Shown here: positions 1 through 11,681 of the stretch, piece after piece | How the letters are laid out: each line of letters starts with the position of its first letter | How positions within the stretch are numbered: the stretch's first letter is position 1 | UHGV virus genome: UHGV-0168755 | Direction: 5' to 3' (one strand) | Origin: a virus | DNA: 11,681 bases | Notes under the pieces: generated by a model | Database searches by the model: none | Seen by the model: only the letters and a program-made list of their open reading frames with translations | What the model was told of the DNA's origin: nothing | Program-made: the position numbers and the translations under genes

Positions 1-50
1 TACGAGATGTCTTAGGGTCTCGTGGGCTCGGAGATGTGTATAAGAGACAG
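1..50. other. Illumina Nextera adapter (i7 index plus transposase mosaic end); library artefact, not biological
   Basis: Sequence TACGAGAT-GTCTTAGG-GTCTCGTGGGCTCGG-AGATGTGTATAAGAGACAG matches the Nextera read-2 adapter with the 19-nt Tn5 mosaic end; its exact reverse complement is at the 3' end of the window. Confidence 0.95.
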
Positions 51-591
51 GTAACTGTCCTGACACGTTATAACGGCGGAAGATCCAGTTTAACAGGTCG
101 ATGACCTGTTTCGCACGAAGTGCATTTTCTTCGTACGACAACTGTTCGATACCATCCAGCGTATAGTCGATCATCTGGTACATCTGCCGTTCACCGACTT
201 CGGAAATGATATCGGCTTGTTGGCGAATCATTTCTGTTTCTTCGGTAAGCGACGGTTGACCTTCAACGTGCTGAAGTGAGCGACCGGTATTGAGCAAAGG
301 CGGGATCGTAAAGAGCAGTTTTGAATTATCCGAATCCGAAACAATCTGTAACGGAACGAAAGCGCTCCCTACATAATCCGTCCAGGTATCTTCGTTAAAC
401 GTGCCATCCAACATCCCCGACAATAACGGTAAACCTTGTCGACGGAACATCGATTCAGTAAACACGCTACACACACCCTGGCCCTGTTTAAGCATCTCTT
501 CCATTTCAAGAAGTTTTTCAAACTCAAACTTAGCACGGCCAGAAAGTTCTTCAATGGGTACCCCATTAAATTTTCCCGGTTCTTGATCCAT
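51..591 (-). CDS. hypothetical protein, partial (start at ATG 589-591, C-terminus runs off the insert into the adapter)
   Basis: Own translation of the minus strand gives an open frame MDQEPGKFNGVPIEELSGRAKFEFEKLLEMEEMLKQGQG... with no stop before the adapter. GAGGA-like RBS upstream; the ATG lies 2 nt after the TGA of the upstream gene (594-596). Not in the ORF track because it has no in-window stop. Confidence 0.55.
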
Positions 592-977: not shown

Positions 978-1016
978 TCTCTACTCCTATCACATTGATA
1001 GTTGCCGCTGTAATTA

Positions 1017-1052
1017 AGAAAAAAGAAGGGGGTGCCCAATCCCCTTCTTTTC
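1017..1052 (-). terminator. intrinsic (rho-independent) terminator, possibly bidirectional
   Basis: About 9-bp GC-rich stem AAGAAGGGG/CCCCTTCTT (1023-1049) followed on the minus strand by TTTTTTCTTAATT; also followed by TTTTCG on the plus strand. Lies between the stop of the 195-aa gene (1055) and the start of the 127-aa gene (977). Confidence 0.6.
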
Positions 1053-1648: not shown

Positions 1649-1900
1649 TTACCCCGCCATTAAAACTAGTTCTGAGTCAAGCGCGATACCTGCTTCCAGA
1701 TCTTCTTCAGTATCCTGGAAGAAACGGTTTATGTTGCTGATGTTCTCGTTATGGAGAATCATACAGCTCGAAACCTCATCCACGTTCGTGCTTGACATAA
1801 AGCCGTTATCTGGGCGATAAGCCATGCCCAGTTCCATTTCAATCTGGTCGATTGCTAATCTGCATTGTAACTGGTCGCCATCAAAATCCTGTATGTCCAC
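1649..1900 (-). CDS. multisubunit RNA polymerase beta'-like N-terminal subunit, exon 2 (catalytic DFDGDQ segment); 3' splice site within about 1895-1925
   Basis: Translation ...DIQDFDGDQLQCRLAIDQ...PDNG... contains the universal beta' Mg-binding motif (N)ADFDGD (codons at 1874-1888). The ORF-track start is a GTG that is probably internal to the spliced reading frame. Ends with tandem stops TAA TGA. Confidence 0.7.
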   Translation of the reverse strand: MDIQDFDGDQLQCRLAIDQIEMELGMAYRPDNGFMSSTNVDEVSSCMILHNENISNINRFFQDTEEDLEAGIALDSELVLMAG

Positions 1901-2262
1901 TCCAATCCTTTTGGAGCAGGTGTGCTAAGACACCCTCCCATGCTTTCACATGGGCACAGACTATATCATAACCGTAGGTAACATTACCCGTAGGTCTCCC
2001 CCACTTCGCCGCTAAACTAAGCAGCTACTCTACTCGGTTTTACCCTTTCGATAGTCGTTGAACGATTTTCACCGCTGCTGATTATCCATTATCACGACCC
2101 TTAGCATTATTGGTTAGCATAGGTCATCTTACAAATTATTTCTGACTTTCGTCACCCTATCGGGATCGTAAGCTTTAGGAGTTACCAGCAATTCAGGGGA
2201 TACGCACTAGAGGTTTCCCGTCTAGTGGGCCAACATTTAGCATTTGGTGCTTTGATGACACG
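1898..2262 (-). ncRNA. group I self-splicing intron (ORF-less, about 330-400 nt) interrupting the beta' gene; boundaries approximate
   Basis: Read on the minus-strand sense: P4/P5 region GACGGGAAACCUCUAGUGCGUAUCCCCUG (2194-2223), R/P7 5' strand GUUCAACGACUAUC (2050-2063), S/P7 3' strand AUGAUAUAGUCUG (1957-1969), P9 hairpin GCCCAUG-UGAAAG-CAUGGG (1937-1955), then two small hairpins before candidate terminal G at 1898-1900. Beta' homology stops before this and resumes at DFDGD after it. Confidence 0.7.
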
Positions 2263-3606
2263 ATCAGAAATACGCAGAGAACATTGTGTTACATCTGTCA
2301 GTACCGATGCAATAAACAACGTCTGAATAGAAAGCTGAACCAATGTTGGGTTACGTAGAACTTCCAACATTAAACCGAATCCACCGGGGGATTCTTTAAT
2401 CAGCTCATTAATAATTTCATGTACCAACGGTACATACTGCATTGCCGCAAATGCAATGATACGTTCGCACTGCCGTGGTGTATAATCACGACGACCCAGC
2501 TTGTTCTCAATGTGAACGCTCGCCAACGGAACCAACCAACGCCAAGGCGCAATCACTTTCAACGCATCGTGAGGTTCAGAGATAGGAGAGATAGTCACAC
2601 GTCCGCCCCACGGTACGTGTGTTGACCCGAGTTTTGCCCGATAGAACCCAGGTTTACCTTCCATCACTTCCTGACGATGGTCAATATAGAAATACGCAAG
2701 TTGACGATTCGCTTTGATTGCGCGACGAATAATAAATCGCGGATCGATACGACGTGCATTCGTGTACAGCAACGCCACATTTTTTACTGCGTCGATAGCG
2801 CTGGTGTATACGGGATCGATAAAGATACCCTGTCGACGTTCCTCCGTAACGATCAGTTTCGACGAAATAATCGGAAGATGCCTTGGAAAGAATGTGAACG
2901 ATTGCTCTTGAAAGAACTCACGCCATTCTAAGCGTACACGCTCACTCTCATAACGGTTATTTTTCGTTGGTGGATAAATCTCCTTCCAAACTTCCGGGGA
3001 CGTGAGGATATTAAAGACGGTTCGATGATGGTCGATAAAGTTTCGAATACCGCGTTCGAATCCGTGCTCAATGAGTATTCTTTTCACTACCCGAGCTCGT
3101 GTCCCTTCGTCCTTTTCTGGTCGATAGTACGGATCGATTAGCCATAGAAGCAAATCAGAACCGCGCTCTACCGTCACCTTGTTACGATTGAACTTTTTCA
3201 GCTTAGAACCAAAGAAAGCATTGAAGAGAGACCAAAAACGTGGATTGATAAAGTTGCCCATCTCATCGGGAGCACGTAACCAAACTTCGGACGTAATCCG
3301 GTGTTCAGAAACAACGTGTCCACAGTGCGGGCAACGTAGCCCAAGATTGTAACGATGGGTAATAGGTGATTCGCAGGTCAAACTGCAAATAGGAGCCGAG
3401 TTGAGTGTCTCATCAACGATTCGGTTTTGAAGTATCTGGTTAATCATCTCTGACGCTTCGATGGTATCCATCGTTACAGCAACGTCATTGATAATAATCG
3501 GCGGTTTGTAGCCTTTTTCCTCCGCTTCTTGTATACAGTCACGTAACATTTTATCGTGACTAATTAATCGCCCTGAAATCCCGTAATATTCTAGTTTATG
3601 TTCCAC
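2182..3606 (-). CDS. multisubunit RNA polymerase beta'-like N-terminal subunit, exon 1 (ORF as called; the last roughly 20-35 codons before the TAA at 2182 are probably intron read-through)
   Basis: GTG start at 3604-3606 with GAGGA 6 nt upstream. Zinc finger CSLTC-x13-CPHCGHVV (compare E. coli CxC-x12-CEKCGVEV), GGRVTISPI (compare GRSVITVGP) and LRNPTLVQLSIQ (compare NRAPTLHRLGIQ), in the same order as bacterial beta'. Confidence 0.8.
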   Translation of the reverse strand: MEHKLEYYGISGRLISHDKMLRDCIQEAEEKGYKPPIIINDVAVTMDTIEASEMINQILQNRIVDETLNSAPICSLTCESPITHRYNLGLRCPHCGHVVSEHRITSEVWLRAPDEMGNFINPRFWSLFNAFFGSKLKKFNRNKVTVERGSDLLLWLIDPYYRPEKDEGTRARVVKRILIEHGFERGIRNFIDHHRTVFNILTSPEVWKEIYPPTKNNRYESERVRLEWREFFQEQSFTFFPRHLPIISSKLIVTEERRQGIFIDPVYTSAIDAVKNVALLYTNARRIDPRFIIRRAIKANRQLAYFYIDHRQEVMEGKPGFYRAKLGSTHVPWGGRVTISPISEPHDALKVIAPWRWLVPLASVHIENKLGRRDYTPRQCERIIAFAAMQYVPLVHEIINELIKESPGGFGLMLEVLRNPTLVQLSIQTLFIASVLTDVTQCSLRISDRVIKAPNAKCWPTRRETSSAYPLNCW

Positions 3607-3619
3607 GCCGAATCCTCAA

Positions 3620-3662
3620 CAAAAAAAGAGAGGGAAGGGACAGGGGGTTTTCCCCTGTCCCT
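3620..3662 (-). terminator. candidate intrinsic terminator/attenuator between the 615-aa gene and the beta' gene
   Basis: 10-11 bp stem GGGACAGGGG/CCCCTGTCCC (3637-3661) with 5-nt loop, followed on the minus strand by UUCCCUCUCUUUUUUUG. The U-run starts about 9 nt after the stem, so the call is moderate. It abuts the beta' RBS. Confidence 0.45.
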
Positions 3663-3690
3663 CAACTACTGCTTACTACTTACCAACTTA

Positions 3691-5538
3691 TCAGAAAGTC
3701 GGACGCCAGTCAGTTGCAGCGAAGGACATACCGAAATCGCTACCAAATGCGTTCGGGCCGCTACCAGACAGTGCGAAGTTCTCATTACCCGTGTTAACAA
3801 ACACAGAGTGAGTGAGGCTGTTCGCTGCGGTAACACCGTTCACCTGGAAGTTGCAGTTTTCGGTGATGTATTCCACCAGTGCTTTACCGAACATCGGGTT
3901 GATTGCCAGATCAGACGCTTCGCCAGTTACCTGCGGCTGTTTGCTACCGAACATGGACGCAGCCATTTTCAGCAGGTACAGACGCTGGTCACGCGCATTC
4001 AGATAGCGGTGAGAGTAGGACTGTGCACTAATGTAGTCGATCGCATCGCGCTGGTTGTCGCCCACTTTAGTCAGAGCGGAAACCAAGTCCATATCCTGGA
4101 AGCTACGTTTCTGGCTGTTGCTGAAATACTGACCAGAGATGGTCGGGCAACCGGCGATAACAACATGTTTGCACTCAAAGTTGTTGACATTTCCCAGCAT
4201 CGCTTTGAAGCGGGTGCTGAACTTAGTCGCGCCGTTGCTGGCCATGTTATCCAGGATGTTGAACAGGGTATACAGTGCGTTGGTGTTACCCATCCCGATT
4301 TCGCTCAGGAGAGTAGACAGACCACCAATACCGTTACCTGCACGATGGTTCACCACCAGTGCCGCAGTCGGATTAGCGAAAGTATCCAGGCATTTCTCGA
4401 TAACTTCACGGTTACCGTCGATTTTGCTCAGGTCAGGTTTTTCGCTGCCCCATTCTACATACTCCAGAACGCGGGAGAAGCGGCGATCGGTTTTGTTCAG
4501 CGACTGCATGAAACGTTCACGCCATCCGCCGATAGTGGCGATTTGTGCGAACGCGGCCAGTTCAATCAGCTGACGTTCGATAGGTGCCATTGCCCCAGAG
4601 GATTGAGAATCCATCAGAGAAACAACCACTTCGGCTTCCAGCTGACGCAGGTCCTGAGTACCGTTGGTCAGAGTTTGCGGTTTACCTTTATGGCGGAGGT
4701 TGATGTAACCAACACCTGCAACGCTCGGATAATTCTGGAGGCGTTCAGAAGAGAACAGCGTCGGGTTATTATCGTTATTGCCGGTGCGGGAATGGTCAAC
4801 CACAACCATCAGGTCAGCACGTTGTGCAGAACCGTTAACGTCAGTTACAGAACCTTCTTCAACGACACTGACTTGTGCAGTGAAGCGATCAGAGCGGGTC
4901 ATTTTCAGGTAGCCCAGGTAGCCGGAATGACGACCGAAGATACCCAGTGCAATCTGGCCCATGAGCTGGTTAGCCCATTCTTCGTTCATGGTTTTACCCA
5001 GTTCCGGTACGCAGTTCATTACCATGAACTGTACGCTCGGCAGATTGTGCTGAGTTGCAATCTGGTTAGTGATGTTGTTCATCACACCTTCTTGACTGAA
5101 CAGCTGTGCCAGGGTGTAGTAGTTTTCTTTACCGTTGATTTCGTAGAAACGGATGGATTGGCCGTGTTCGAAGAACAGGATACCGTAGAGCCATTCGTTA
5201 TGGTTATCACCAGACGGACCAGCCACATATGCAGCAGAACCCATTTCAGAGTTGATGCCGTCAATGACGCCCCAACGGAAGTTACGCAGGTAGGTGTTCT
5301 TCTCTGCCATCTTCTCAATCAGACTGGTGAACTGAGAAGCAGTGGACACAAAGGACATATACCCAAAAGCTTTATCGAAGGTGGAAATGTTTTTAGACAT
5401 TCCACCAAAAGCGTTGGCCGCATTGGTGTTATCCATAGTAGGAGCTCCCGCACCGCCGAAAGACGGAATTGGATCTGCGGCGGAACCAGCAGCACCAGTC
5501 ACAACGTCGTTTTGATTGTCAATAAACTCTTTAGCCAT
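3691..5538 (-). CDS. highly expressed 615-aa protein; candidate phage-nucleus shell protein (chimallin), alternatively a major virion structural protein
   Basis: ATG start with AAGGA RBS. Codon usage is visibly shifted to E. coli-type optimal codons (CTG, CGT, GGT, ACC, AAC, GAA) compared with neighbours. Gly/Ala-rich flexible N-terminal segment. Lies immediately upstream of, and co-oriented with, the beta' N-terminal subunit gene. Identity is inferred from size and position, not from recognised sequence. Confidence 0.7.
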   Translation of the reverse strand: MAKEFIDNQNDVVTGAAGSAADPIPSFGGAGAPTMDNTNAANAFGGMSKNISTFDKAFGYMSFVSTASQFTSLIEKMAEKNTYLRNFRWGVIDGINSEMGSAAYVAGPSGDNHNEWLYGILFFEHGQSIRFYEINGKENYYTLAQLFSQEGVMNNITNQIATQHNLPSVQFMVMNCVPELGKTMNEEWANQLMGQIALGIFGRHSGYLGYLKMTRSDRFTAQVSVVEEGSVTDVNGSAQRADLMVVVDHSRTGNNDNNPTLFSSERLQNYPSVAGVGYINLRHKGKPQTLTNGTQDLRQLEAEVVVSLMDSQSSGAMAPIERQLIELAAFAQIATIGGWRERFMQSLNKTDRRFSRVLEYVEWGSEKPDLSKIDGNREVIEKCLDTFANPTAALVVNHRAGNGIGGLSTLLSEIGMGNTNALYTLFNILDNMASNGATKFSTRFKAMLGNVNNFECKHVVIAGCPTISGQYFSNSQKRSFQDMDLVSALTKVGDNQRDAIDYISAQSYSHRYLNARDQRLYLLKMAASMFGSKQPQVTGEASDLAINPMFGKALVEYITENCNFQVNGVTAANSLTHSVFVNTGNENFALSGSGPNAFGSDFGMSFAATDWRPTF

Positions 5539-5582
5539 TTTACTTAATCCTTATAAGGTTTAATACAATTGTAGTGTTGGTT

Positions 5583-5612
5583 CACGTAGATAATATCTAG
5601 CTAAGATATTTT
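5583..5612. promoter_or_regulatory. copy 1 of a duplicated 30-bp motif CACGTAGATAATATCTAGCTAAGATATTTT in the divergent intergenic region; candidate promoter/operator
   Basis: Direct repeat with copy 2 (about 26 of 30 identical, 80 bp apart); contains internal inverted repeat ATATCT-N5-AGATAT; lies 45 nt upstream of the 615-aa gene start. Confidence 0.45.
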
Positions 5613-5662
5613 GGAATACACGTAAAACACACATAGCTTAAAATGATTAACTACCGAACCAT

Positions 5663-5693
5663 CACATAGATAATATCATTCTCAGATATTTTT
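5663..5693. promoter_or_regulatory. copy 2 of the duplicated motif CACATAGATAATATCATTCTCAGATATTTTT
   Basis: Same motif as 5583-5612 with inverted half-sites ATATC/GATAT; about 55 nt upstream of the plus-strand gene start at 5747. Confidence 0.45.
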
Positions 5694-6808: not shown

Positions 6809-6861
6809 GACTTACTCTCCCCCGGAGAGGACTCTTTCGAATCCTCATATAATAGAGTTAA

Positions 6862-6898
6862 AACGTTGCACTTCGGTGCAACGTTTACTTTCTTTTTA
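6862..6898 (+). terminator. intrinsic terminator between convergent genes, probably bidirectional
   Basis: Perfect 10-bp palindromic stem AACGTTGCAC-TTCG-GTGCAACGTT (6862-6885) followed by TACTTTCTTTTTA on the plus strand; on the minus strand the same stem is followed by TTAACTC. Confidence 0.7.
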
Positions 6899-9407: not shown

Positions 9408-9446
9408 AAAAAAAAAAGAAAAAAAAAACCCTCTCCGAAGAGAGGG
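9408..9446 (-). terminator. strong intrinsic terminator ending the upstream four-gene operon
   Basis: 7-bp stem CCCTCTC-CGAA-GAGAGGG (9429-9446) followed immediately on the minus strand by a run of about 20 U (plus-strand A-run 9408-9428). Confidence 0.8.
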
Positions 9447-9454
9447 CATTCCGA

Positions 9455-10928: not shown

Positions 10929-11352
10929 TGAACGTTTCCCCAATCCAACGTGTCAAAGGACCAGGAAACATAGAATTAATCAACGCAGCTAATCCTGTCT
11001 GCGTCACGAGTTCGTTTTGCAGTATCTCCGCCGCATGGCAAATCGCTACCATGTGGTTATTCTCATCCCCTACTGTGGAGAGAAACGTGATACTTTCTAC
11101 AGTTACGCCAGGGATCGTATTTTCGTCGTATGCGGTGACGGTAACCAGCTCTTTTAGCAGCTCAGGGTTACGTGCCTTCGCTGCGATAATGTACGCAGTA
11201 CCAAAGTCTTCATAGAGTCTACGGACATCGTGCTCGTAGACGTCTAAACGACCTGCTTCTAAAACGTCTACCAATACGTCCCGTACTGCTTCGTAGAATC
11301 GGGTTCTGCCGTAATTTTGTACCTCTTGTGCGACGTAATAGACATACTGCAT
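10846..11352 (-). CDS. hypothetical protein (168 aa)
   Basis: ATG at 11350-11352 overlaps the TAA of the upstream partial gene (TAATG arrangement). Confidence 0.65.
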   Translation of the reverse strand: MQYVYYVAQEVQNYGRTRFYEAVRDVLVDVLEAGRLDVYEHDVRRLYEDFGTAYIIAAKARNPELLKELVTVTAYDENTIPGVTVESITFLSTVGDENNHMVAICHAAEILQNELVTQTGLAALINSMFPGPLTRWIGETFNDLVLVCNETVYGNFGSVSPGAFTFTG

Positions 11353-11634
11353 TATAAGACCTTCCCAGCCAGGTTACCCAGCAACAGTTCTACAATCGTT
11401 TGCATATTCGGCGTCAGTTGTTGTAACAAAGCCGGTTCTTCGTATTCTGGGTACTTTACTTGCTCGTACCTTACCAGAAACTCTACCGCACCTGGCTTTT
11501 GTGCACAATAACGCGCACCTATCCACTGGCCGTATCGTGTAAACCAATACGGCTCTGTCGACACCGCCACCACAAAACTCTTCGCCACCTCCTGTGTCGA
11601 TTTTATATATTCCATTGCACGTTCACCATCTAAC
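11352..11634 (-). CDS. hypothetical protein, 5'-partial or starting at ATG about 11613-11615; the ORF-track N-terminus MGSEMCIRDR is adapter-encoded
   Basis: The frame is open from the insert edge. The first 10 codons of the track ORF are translated from the adapter CTGTCTCTTATACACATCTCCGAGCCCAC. A candidate real start, ATG (MEYIKSTQ...), has a weak GGTGA upstream. Confidence 0.5.
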
Positions 11635-11681
11635 CTGTCTCTTATACACATCTCCGAGCCCACGAGACCCTAAGACATCTC
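11635..11681. other. Illumina Nextera adapter (mosaic end CTGTCTCTTATACACATCT + CCGAGCCCACGAGAC + index CCTAAGAC + ATCTC); library artefact
   Basis: Exact reverse complement of positions 1-50; canonical adapter sequence. Position may be off by 1 nt. Confidence 0.95.

What the first reader, a model, noticed from the sequence alone, without database searches (positions are those of the whole stretch)
3606..3662. Terminator hairpin abutting the beta' ribosome-binding site: possible read-through/attenuation coupling
The GC-rich hairpin and pyrimidine/U-rich tract that follow the highly expressed 615-aa gene end only about 15 nt before the beta' GTG start, and the U-tract overlaps the region just upstream of its GAGGA RBS. 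There is no room for an independent promoter between them. The beta' subunit may therefore be expressed from terminator read-through at a much lower level, setting the stoichiometry between an abundant protein and the polymerase.
Basis: inference. Interest (0 to 1): 0.4.

Follow-up and report, generated by a model that had tools for sequence, protein, structure and literature searches.

The report
Terminator hairpin between chimallin and polymerase genes
In a giant "nucleus-forming" phage, a conserved RNA hairpin with a run of U sits between the gene for the abundant nuclear-shell protein and a gene for the phage's own RNA polymerase; it is one of dozens of such terminators in these genomes and probably lets only some transcripts read on into the polymerase gene.

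Summary
On the minus strand, a 12-bp GC-rich hairpin (3663..3635, -24 kcal/mol) is followed by CCCTCTC, T7 (3627..3621), GTT, GAGGA and the GTG start at 3606.

The 615-aa gene encodes chimallin, the phage-nucleus shell protein. The next gene encodes the N-terminal beta' part of the non-virion RNA polymerase (phiKZ gp55 homologue).

The hairpin shows strong covariation in 15 distinct sequences from SPN3US-like phages. A hairpin plus T-run sits at the same junction in phiKZ, Goslar, PCH45, Noxifer, pTD1, Eowyn and Ea35-70.

Two tandem early-promoter motifs lie upstream of chimallin. None lies between chimallin and beta'N. In SPN3US the next such motif comes 8 genes later. Read-through is therefore the best-supported way to express beta'N, as already proposed for 201phi2-1 gp107.

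The "U-tract abutting the RBS" is not a special coupling device. Hairpin, then a 5-10-nt pyrimidine spacer, then T6-8 is the usual terminator layout in SPN3US (about 89 hairpins) and in phiKZ, including between convergent genes.

No transcript data exist for this phage, so partial termination and the expression ratio are inferred. Verdict: an ordinary, conserved phage attenuator-type terminator and a new member of a known kind.

A group I intron splits beta'N at NADFDGD.

The parts
5658..5691 (-). Distal early-promoter-like motif P1 (AAATATCTGAGAATGATATTATCTATGTGATGGT) upstream of chimallin
   Evidence: It scores 25.9 bits with a PWM built only from 20 non-chimallin SPN3US sites. The tandem pair is conserved upstream of chimallin in all 18 loci. 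The motif family occurs 22 times in SPN3US, always on the + strand and upstream of genes. It fits the published description of jumbo-phage early promoters as an AT-rich block near -10 (PMC7598289).
5578..5611 (-). Proximal early-promoter-like motif P2 (AAATATCTTAGCTAGATATTATCTACGTGAACCA), about 40 nt before the chimallin ATG
   Evidence: 34.8 bits with the independent PWM. It forms a direct repeat with P1 at 80-nt spacing.
3691..5538 (-). Chimallin (ChmA/PhuN, phage-nucleus shell protein), 615 aa
   Evidence: The AlphaFold model (pLDDT 74, pTM 0.79) has only chimallin/PhuN structures among its significant Foldseek matches (the 9 with E <= 0.001: E 2e-20 to 4e-17, prob 1.0, TM 0.58-0.72; next hit E = 0.07). 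It matches phrog_8316 (E = 1.7e-232). Homologues carry precomputed PF25677 Chimallin_Phikzvirus hits. Synteny with phiKZ gp54-gp55 is conserved.
3635..3663 (-). Terminator-type hairpin: 12-bp stem (11 Watson-Crick pairs plus 1 G-U) with loop AAAAC, -24.0 kcal/mol
   Evidence: Covariation in 15 relatives: 91% of cells paired, 8 of 12 pairs with changes on both sides, score 0.544 against 0.296 in shuffles (0 of 500 reach it) and 0.12-0.23 with slid partners.
3628..3634 (-). C-rich spacer CCCTCTC between the stem and the T-run
   Evidence: Read directly from the sequence. The CCCTC core is conserved in most SPN3US-like relatives. It pairs only weakly and inconsistently with the upstream flank.
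3621..3627 (-). T7 run (U-tract), preceded by C and followed by G
   Evidence: Invariant in all 18 SPN3US-like loci. Its 7-nt offset from the stem equals the median offset of T>=5 runs after strong intergenic hairpins in SPN3US. The same layout occurs at convergent gene ends and in phiKZ.
3613..3617 (-). Shine-Dalgarno GAGGA of beta'N, 6 nt before the GTG
   Evidence: Read from the sequence. GAGG or GGAG is conserved at this position in all relatives.
2239..3606 (-). Exon 1 of the non-virion RNA polymerase beta'-N subunit (phiKZ gp55 / SPN3US gp23 homologue), GTG start
   Evidence: PDB 7ogp_A (PHIKZ055), E = 5.6e-33. phrog_2987 'RNA polymerase beta subunit', E = 7e-142. 69% identity to SPN3US gp23.
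1889..2238 (-). Group I intron interrupting beta'N inside the codons of the catalytic NADFDGD motif
   Evidence: Rfam RF00028: 56.6 bits (gathering score 50), E = 1.9e-12, at 1937..2248. Exon 1 ends in ...AATGCT and the intron ends in ...ACAG. Joining the exons gives ...KAPNADFDGDQ... and a 535-aa protein colinear with SPN3US gp23.
1649..1888 (-). Exon 2 of beta'N
   Evidence: tblastn with SPN3US gp23 residues 442-528. The spliced reading frame has a single terminal stop.

Best explanation
The element is a terminator of the type used throughout nucleus-forming jumbo phages (Chimalliviridae): a stable GC-rich RNA hairpin, a short pyrimidine spacer and a U7 run. It sits inside an early operon.

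Proposed mechanism:
1. Transcription starts at two tandem early promoters upstream of chimallin. By analogy with phiKZ, the injected virion RNA polymerase carries it out.
2. A large share of transcripts end at, or are trimmed back to, the hairpin. This yields abundant, 3'-protected chimallin mRNA.
3. The remaining transcripts read through into the beta'N gene of the non-virion polymerase and the genes after it (the gp24-gp29 equivalents, including SbcD).
4. The step-down in RNA, together with the weaker GTG start of beta'N, gives much chimallin and little polymerase subunit.

Shown here: the hairpin, its covariation, its conservation across the family, the absence of the early-promoter motif downstream, and the generic nature of the layout.
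Inferred: that the 3' ends form here, that termination is partial, and which polymerase is acting.
For: - Hairpin strength and rarity in shuffles.
- Covariation.
- Identical architecture in 17 SPN3US-like loci.
- A hairpin plus T-run at the chimallin/beta'N junction in phiKZ, Ea35-70, Goslar, PCH45, Noxifer, pTD1 and Eowyn.
- Early-promoter motif found only upstream of chimallin in the window and in all loci.
- In SPN3US the next such motif is at 23801, before gp30.
- No hidden conserved element in the chimallin 3' coding region.
- The layout matches the genome-wide terminator population of SPN3US and of phiKZ.
- Literature: 133 mapped termination sites in phiKZ, defined by a read drop of at least 20%, most of the predicted intrinsic ones sharing a hairpin motif, and PHIKZ054 transcribed in many transcription units (PMC10914365). 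201phi2-1 gp107 has no promoter of its own (PMC11512511). [quoted passage not shown] Gp55 accumulates with early kinetics (PMC10612078).
Against: - There are no transcript 3'-end or coverage data for this phage or for any SPN3US-like phage.
- The U-run is separated from the stem by 7 C-rich bases. By the rules for bacterial polymerase this would be a poor terminator, and the rules for the phage polymerases are unknown.
- Middle and late promoters of these phages have little or no recognisable motif (phiKZ late: TATG only), so a promoter for beta'N cannot be excluded by sequence.
- In 201phi2-1 no read spanning the upstream early promoter through to gp107 was recovered.
Confidence: 0.6

Rival explanations
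1. The hairpin is mainly an mRNA-stability or processing element. The polymerase mostly transcribes through it. The polycistronic RNA is then cut in the single-stranded U-rich stretch, for example by host RNase E. The hairpin blocks 3'-exonucleases, so the chimallin segment outlives the beta'N segment. This is the classical intercistronic-hairpin mechanism of puf, malEFG/REP and pap.
For: The stem is very stable and covaries. The proximal tail is C-rich rather than U-rich, which is unfavourable for canonical termination. A single-stranded U7 lies just downstream. This mechanism would produce the same abundance difference.
Against: The T6-8 run is invariant and belongs to the same layout at convergent gene ends, where real termination is needed. 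Homologous hairpin motifs in phiKZ and 201phi2-1 coincide with termination sites mapped by ONT-cappable-seq, and eight 201phi2-1 terminators chosen for >99% termination efficiency, covering several motifs, terminated in reporter assays. The two mechanisms are not mutually exclusive.
Confidence: 0.2
2. The hairpin is an efficient, full terminator. Beta'N is transcribed from its own promoter of an unrecognised class (middle or late type), embedded in the last part of the chimallin gene or in the intergenic region.
For: Middle and late promoters of phiKZ-like phages have almost no sequence signature (PMC7598289), so their absence cannot be shown by motif search. In 201phi2-1 other nvRNAP subunit genes use middle or late promoters. 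phiKZ has a 394-nt gap between gp54 and gp55 that could hold a promoter.
Against: Apart from the hairpin, T7 and SD, the 84-nt intergenic region has no conserved block, and its 5' part varies. There is no TATG in it. Synonymous sites at the chimallin 3' end show no excess conservation. In phiKZ the hairpin-T7 lies downstream of the long gap, immediately before gp55, so any promoter in the gap would still have to read through it. No promoter was found for 201phi2-1 gp107.
Confidence: 0.1
3. The conserved CCCTC...T7...GAGG stretch controls translation of beta'N. Either CCUC pairs with the Shine-Dalgarno GAGG to damp initiation, or the U7 acts as an S1-binding enhancer. In this view the hairpin only insulates the ribosome-binding site.
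For: CCUC and GAGG are complementary, and the MFE folds of the window and several relatives pair them. The T7 always lies 3-9 nt upstream of the SD (3-5 nt in 15 of the 18 loci).
Against: A 4-bp helix closing a 10-12-nt loop has negligible stability. The pairing is not conserved in the Derbicusvirus group. The same C-T7-G tail follows hairpins where no gene start follows, so the T-run is explained without reference to translation.
Confidence: 0.07

Closest known systems
Intrinsic-type terminators of phiKZ and 201phi2-1 mapped by ONT-cappable-seq (PMC10914365, PMC11512511)
   Same: A GC-rich hairpin with a tetraloop-type loop and a T-rich tail, found in intergenic regions and often between co-directional genes. 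These sites define overlapping transcription units with read-through. phiKZ itself has such a hairpin (AGCGGCTCC-TTCG-GGGGCCGCT, then TATATCTCC, T7, GTT) directly before gp55.
   Different: The published phiKZ motif has TTAT right after the stem. Here the tail is CCCTCTC followed by T7. The stem sequence is unrelated. No 3'-end mapping exists for this phage or its SPN3US-like relatives.
rplL-rpoB attenuator of the E. coli rplKAJL-rpoBC operon (my own knowledge, not tested here)
   Same: A partial terminator inside an operon separates a very abundant protein gene from RNA polymerase subunit genes. The polymerase genes are expressed by read-through at a lower level.
   Different: Analogy only. 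The host, the polymerase, the sequence and the evolutionary origin all differ. The E. coli element has experimentally measured read-through; this one does not.
201phi2-1 gp105 (chimallin) / gp107 (beta') arrangement (PMC11512511)
   Same: The homologous beta' gene has no promoter of its own, and an early promoter lies about 3 kb upstream. The authors propose basal expression from the upstream promoter.
   Different: In that study no read spanning the whole distance was recovered. Here the evidence comes only from sequence and comparison.
Intercistronic stabiliser hairpins (Rhodobacter puf, E. coli malE-malF REP) (my own knowledge)
   Same: A stable hairpin at the 3' end of the more abundant upstream cistron in a polycistronic unit.
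   Different: Those elements need no U-run and act after transcription. Here a conserved T7 run accompanies the hairpin, as in terminators.

Membership tests
Canonical bacterial rho-independent terminator | GC-rich stem-loop shortly after a stop codon | tested here: met
   12-bp stem with 8 G-C pairs, -24 kcal/mol, starting 27 nt after the TGA.
Canonical bacterial rho-independent terminator | U-tract of about 7-9 nt starting within 0-2 nt of the stem | tested here: not met
   The bases after the stem are CCCTCTC, and the T7 starts at +8. The scan passes it only because its window of 8 starts at +2 and so takes in the first T of the run.
Canonical bacterial rho-independent terminator | Transcript 3' ends map to the U-tract | not testable with these tools
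   No RNA data are available for this phage.
Chimalliviridae (phiKZ-like / SPN3US-like) phage terminator population | Stable intergenic hairpin after a gene, followed by a T-rich tail whose T-run is displaced about 5-10 nt from the stem | tested here: met
   SPN3US has 89 such post-gene hairpins. T frequency peaks at +8 to +11, and the median offset of T>=5 runs is 7, the same as here. phiKZ shows the same layout.
Chimalliviridae (phiKZ-like / SPN3US-like) phage terminator population | Published phiKZ motif: stem followed by YTTATKYYGT | tested here: not met
   There is no TTAT after the stem in the window. Some SPN3US terminators carry CTTTTATTTT tails, but this one does not.
Chimalliviridae (phiKZ-like / SPN3US-like) phage terminator population | Structure maintained by selection (compensatory changes) | tested here: met
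   8 of 12 pairs have changes on both sides. No shuffle of 500 reaches the observed score, and the slid-partner controls are far lower.
Internal operon attenuator (partial terminator) | No promoter between the terminator and the downstream gene | tested here: inconclusive
   The early-promoter motif is absent and no hidden conserved element was found. Promoters without a known motif cannot be excluded.
Internal operon attenuator (partial terminator) | Measured partial read-through | not testable with these tools
   This needs RNA-seq, Term-seq or reporter assays.
Chimallin (ChmA/PhuN) for the 615-aa protein | Chimallin fold | tested here: met
   The only significant Foldseek PDB hits (the 9 with E <= 0.001) are all chimallin/PhuN, E down to 2e-20, TM 0.58-0.72. 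Sequence-only PDB searches found nothing.
nvRNAP beta'-N (phiKZ gp55) | Sequence homology to gp55 and presence of the NADFDGD catalytic motif | tested here: met
   7ogp_A, E = 5.6e-33. NADFDGD is restored after removing the intron.
Group I intron (RF00028) | Score above the Rfam gathering threshold, plus U at the 5' splice site, G at the intron 3' end, and an in-frame exon junction | tested here: met
   56.6 bits against a threshold of 50. Boundaries ...GCT|AAATG... and ...ACAG|GAT. The spliced ORF is colinear with SPN3US gp23.

The most novel reading that the evidence does not exclude
The hairpin / 5-10-nt spacer / U6-8 layout could be a terminator class specific to the multisubunit RNA polymerases of nucleus-forming jumbo phages, with a hairpin-to-U-tract geometry unlike that of bacterial polymerase. 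It is seen here, in about 89 SPN3US sites and in phiKZ. The copy conserved family-wide between chimallin and beta'N could then be a tuned, possibly polymerase-specific or antiterminator-controlled attenuator. For example, the virion and non-virion polymerases might read it differently. That would link production of the nuclear shell to production of the polymerase that must later be imported into it.
Probability: 0.12. Interest if true: 0.55.

Novelty: new member of a known kind. Interest (0 to 1): 0.27.

Why it matters
[quoted passage not shown] The non-virion polymerase is needed in far smaller amounts but equally early. A terminator conserved between the two genes across the family offers a simple, testable explanation for that ratio. 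It also gives a handle (hairpin deletion or U-run mutation) for perturbing the ratio in phage engineering.

More practically, the analysis yields candidate regulatory parts for SPN3US-like phages, none of which was found described for this clade in the papers searched here. These are an early-promoter consensus (AAAwwTTnCAGATAGATATTATCTnnGTGA, 22 sites in SPN3US) and a terminator layout. Neither changes how phage operons are understood.

Tried and rejected
- Sequence-only searches of the 615-aa protein against the PDB (single sequence and a 16-sequence profile) and against the local Pfam copy found nothing. Only fold comparison identified it.
- I tested whether the spacer pairs with the upstream flank, which would put the T7 directly at the base of a longer stem. 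The pairing is weak and inconsistent across the 18 loci, so I rejected this.
- I tested for a hidden promoter or RNA element in the chimallin 3' end, using synonymous-codon identity in 115 pairs below 60% amino-acid identity. There is no local excess: 0.56-0.68 against 0.60 overall.
- The megablast hit confined to 3707-4001 looked like possible non-coding conservation. No excess synonymous conservation was found in that stretch, so I did not pursue it as a non-coding element; overall codon identity is high (0.60).
- A GTAGT motif upstream of hairpins looked enriched in SPN3US (9 of 73 against a 2.5% background). In four of the five sites I checked it is a TAG or tandem-stop context, so I did not pursue it.
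- Rfam found no family for the hairpin region. The CRISPR-DR30 hit at 6811-6843 (E = 0.59) is a chance match.
- The supplementary tables of the phiKZ and 201phi2-1 transcriptome papers, which would list a termination site after PHIKZ054 or gp105, are not held.
- MAFFT placed the window's hairpin one column out of register because its loop has 5 nt rather than 4. I left it that way, so the covariation figures are conservative for that row.

Full report
**What is there.** All relevant genes lie on the minus strand. The 615-aa ORF (3691..5538) ends in TGA at 3693..3691. An 84-nt intergenic region follows. Read 5'->3' on the minus strand it contains:
- a 27-nt spacer rich in out-of-frame stop codons;
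- a hairpin: GAGGGACAGGGG (3663..3652), loop AAAAC, CCCCTGTCCCTT (3646..3635);
- CCCTCTC (3634..3628);
- T7 (3627..3621);
- GTT, then GAGGA (3617..3613), TTCGGC, and GTG at 3606.

The hairpin is the most stable perfect hairpin in the window, at -24.0 kcal/mol. Only 5 of 200 dinucleotide shuffles of the whole strand produced any hairpin of -20 or better. The generic scan lists it first.

**What the genes are.** The 615-aa protein has no sequence match in the PDB or in the local Pfam copy. An AlphaFold model built on 16 homologues (pLDDT 74, pTM 0.79) has only chimallin/PhuN structures from 201phi2-1, Goslar and phiPA3 among its significant Foldseek matches. These are the 9 matches with E <= 0.001 (E = 2e-20 to 4e-17, probability 1.0, TM 0.58-0.72); the next hit has E = 0.07. 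Some homologues carry the precomputed Pfam family PF25677 Chimallin_Phikzvirus.

The downstream gene is the N-terminal beta' fragment of the non-virion RNA polymerase. It matches phiKZ gp55 in PDB 7ogp (E = 5.6e-33) and is 69% identical to SPN3US gp23.

The nearest isolates are SPN3US-like phages of Salmonella and Erwinia, at about 50% chimallin identity. Two IMG/VR contigs of 220-225 kb are 99% identical. [quoted passage not shown]

**Conservation of the element.** I extracted the chimallin/beta'N intergenic region from 17 further loci spanning Seoulvirus, Erskinevirus, Machinavirus, Wellingtonvirus, Derbicusvirus and unnamed metagenomic lineages. Every one has the same order: stop, variable spacer, 8-12-bp GC hairpin, pyrimidine spacer, an invariant T7, G or C, SD, start.

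The stems differ in sequence. Between close relatives there are clean compensatory changes:
- SPN3US GGACGGGGGC/GCCTCCGTCC versus STsAS GGACAGGGGC/GCCTCTGTCC;
- Wellington GCAGGGG/CCCCTGC versus L017 GCGGGGG/CCCCCGC;
- Phobos GGGGGAGG/CCTCCCCC versus CR5 GGGAGAGG/CCTCTCCC.

On a 15-sequence alignment, 91.4% of cells form pairs and 8 of 12 pairs show changes on both sides. The covariation score is 0.544, against 0.296 +/- 0.027 in shuffles (0 of 500 reach it) and 0.12-0.23 when the partners are slid.

The arrangement extends across the family. phiKZ has AGCGGCTCC-TTCG-GGGGCCGCT, then TATATCTCC, T7 and GTT; the T7GTT ends 32 nt before the gp55 ATG. Ea35-70, Goslar, PCH45, Noxifer, pTD1 and Eowyn all have a strong hairpin plus T-run between the annotated nuclear shell protein and the beta' gene. 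RSL2 and D3 have the hairpin directly after chimallin, with small ORFs inserted before beta'N.

**Promoters.** Upstream of chimallin, every locus carries two tandem copies, 77-93 nt apart, of a motif with the consensus AAAwwTTACAGnnnGATATTATCnnnGTGA. A PWM built from it finds 22 sites in the complete SPN3US genome. All are on the + strand, and each lies a few tens of nt (up to about 230 nt) upstream of a + strand gene start. This fits the published description of jumbo-phage early promoters as a conserved AT-rich block near -10, recognised by the virion polymerase (PMC7598289).

A second PWM, built only from the 20 non-chimallin SPN3US sites, hits the minus strand of the window at exactly two places: 5691..5658 (25.9 bits) and 5611..5578 (34.8 bits). 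Its best score anywhere in 3607..4300 is -10 bits.

In SPN3US the next site after the chimallin pair is at 23801, before gp30. On this evidence gp22-gp29 share the chimallin promoters. Synonymous-codon identity along chimallin shows no local rise at the 3' end that would betray an embedded element. This matches the experimental picture in 201phi2-1. There no promoter was detected for the beta' gene gp107, and a motif search placed an early promoter about 3 kb upstream (PMC11512511).

**Is the closeness of the U-run to the RBS special?** No. I took the whole SPN3US genome and listed the stable hairpins that follow genes. There are 89 with dG <= -11:
- 45 between co-directional genes with no early promoter after them;
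- 9 followed by an early promoter;
- 35 at convergent gene ends.

After the 73 strongest stems, T frequency is only 0.38-0.49 at +1 to +3, where C is enriched. It rises to 0.68-0.75 at +8 to +11. Among the 44 of these with a T>=5 run, the median offset of the run is 7 nt, exactly as in the chimallin element. The same C-T6-8-G tail follows hairpins at convergent gene ends where no start codon follows, for example at SPN3US 6418, 41184, 160009, 202323 and 226217. phiKZ shows the same displaced T-runs.

The T7 is therefore part of the terminator. Its position next to the SD reflects compact gene packing. The candidate CCUC:GAGG pairing is too weak and too inconsistently conserved to carry weight.

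**Most likely mechanism.** Early transcription starts at the two tandem promoters. By analogy with phiKZ, the virion polymerase carries it out. Many transcripts end at, or are trimmed back to, the hairpin, which gives abundant and protected chimallin mRNA. The rest read through into beta'N and the following genes. The GTG start of beta'N lowers its yield further.

The anatomy, the covariation, the conservation and the absence of an early-promoter motif are shown. Formation of 3' ends at this site, partial efficiency and the identity of the polymerase are inferred. I put this at about 0.6.

The rivals are:
- a mainly post-transcriptional stabiliser or processing role (0.2; compatible with the main reading);
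- a full terminator with an unrecognised promoter for beta'N (0.1);
- translational control through the CCCTC/T7/SD stretch (0.07).

**Comparison with what is known.** This belongs to the hairpin terminators mapped in phiKZ (133 sites) and 201phi2-1 (132 sites), which define overlapping transcription units with read-through. PHIKZ054 itself is reported in many transcription units (PMC10914365). It lacks the phiKZ 'TTAT' tail motif and fails the canonical bacterial rule of an adjacent U-tract. It does meet the layout that I measured for its own clade. Functionally it resembles the E. coli rplL-rpoB attenuator (my own knowledge), but only by analogy.

**Verdict.** A real, selected and family-wide conserved element of an ordinary kind. 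The 'coupling' emphasis is not supported.

**Side findings.**
- The beta'N gene is split by a 350-nt group I intron (2238..1889; Rfam 56.6 bits), inserted inside the codons of the catalytic NADFDGD motif. Splicing restores ...KAPNADFDGDQ... and gives a 535-aa protein. phiKZ and Goslar have introns at a comparable position.
- Both ends of the window are inverted copies of an Illumina Nextera adapter.

Noticed in passing
window 1889-2238 (- strand); exons 3606..2239 and 1888..1649: A group I intron (Rfam RF00028, 56.6 bits) splits the nvRNAP beta'-N gene exactly inside the catalytic NADFDGD motif. This explains the truncated 474-aa ORF and the orphan 83-aa ORF. Splicing gives a 535-aa protein. 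The 71%-identical relative L013 shows the same split. phiKZ (gp55/gp56/gp56.1) and Goslar have introns with HNH genes at a similar place; this intron carries no endonuclease ORF.
   Followed up: yes
window 4-52 and 11633-11681: The two ends of the window are perfect 49-nt inverted copies of an Illumina Nextera adapter (…GTCTCGTGGGCTCGGAGATGTGTATAAGAGACAG…). The window is therefore a whole contig with untrimmed adapters. The N-terminus 'MGSEMCIRDRL' of ORF 11352..11663 is an artefact.
   Followed up: partly
window 5578-5611 and 5658-5691 (- strand); SPN3US (L020-L024) 22 sites: A tandem pair of conserved motifs (consensus AAAwwTTnCAGATAGATATTATCTnnGTGA) lies upstream of chimallin in every relative. 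The family has 22 members in SPN3US, all on the + strand and upstream of genes, including the nvRNAP gene gp34. It is probably the early (virion-polymerase) promoter of SPN3US-like phages. The core is nearly palindromic and gives weak hits on the opposite strand facing the divergent 353-aa gene.
   Followed up: partly
SPN3US whole genome (L020-L024); phiKZ L025: After strong intergenic hairpins, the T-run is displaced. T frequency is 0.38-0.49 at +1 to +3 and peaks at 0.68-0.75 at +8 to +11, with a median run offset of 7 nt. This differs from the adjacent U-tract of canonical bacterial terminators and holds at convergent gene ends too. Bidirectional hairpins often carry a CTTTTATTTT-type tail on one strand and a spacer plus T7-G tail on the other.
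   Followed up: partly
window 9428-9447 (- strand) and following T10CT10: A canonical strong terminator (GCCCTCTC-TTCG-GAGAGGGT followed by T10-C-T10) lies between the SH3DP gene and the divergent family-B DNA polymerase gene. Both genes run in the same direction, and no early-promoter motif follows. SPN3US has the same junction at 11458.
   Followed up: no
window 1021-1051 and about 985-1015 (- strand): A terminator hairpin follows the 195-aa gene (GAAGGGG-ATTGGGCA-CCCCTTC followed by TTTTTTCTT). After it comes TTACAG-12 nt-ATGTGA, a degenerate version of the early-promoter motif, just before the 127-aa gene.
   Followed up: no
window 6811-6843 and 6861-6886: Two hairpins lie between the convergent 353-aa gene (+) and the DNA polymerase gene (-). 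The first is CTCTCCCCCGGAGAG, which gives a weak chance Rfam CRISPR-DR30 hit (E = 0.59). The second is AAACGTTGCAC-TTCG-GTGCAACGTTT, a likely bidirectional terminator.
   Followed up: no
L025 (phiKZ) 17530-17860: The phiKZ gp54-gp55 gap is 394 nt. The hairpin-T7 sits at its very end, and the preceding roughly 330 nt is non-coding, contains further hairpins and remains unexplained. The SPN3US-like phages have only 70-90 nt at this junction.
   Followed up: no
SPN3US JN641803 gp22 (15768-17621) versus literature: Laughlin et al. 2022 (PMC9365700) name 'gp244' as the SPN3US chimallin homologue. In the GenBank record SPN3US_0244 is a 240-aa protein, described elsewhere as a vRNAP beta' C-terminal fragment (PMC7598289). 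By sequence and fold, the chimallin homologue is the gp22 family. This is probably a numbering difference; I did not resolve it.
   Followed up: partly
intergenic region 3664-3690 (- strand) and relatives: An (A)GTAGT(T)AGG-like motif with several out-of-frame stop codons is conserved just 5' of the hairpin in most SPN3US-like relatives, but not in Derbicusvirus. Its function is unknown. A genome-wide enrichment of GTAGT upstream of hairpins mostly reflects TAG and tandem-stop contexts.
   Followed up: partly
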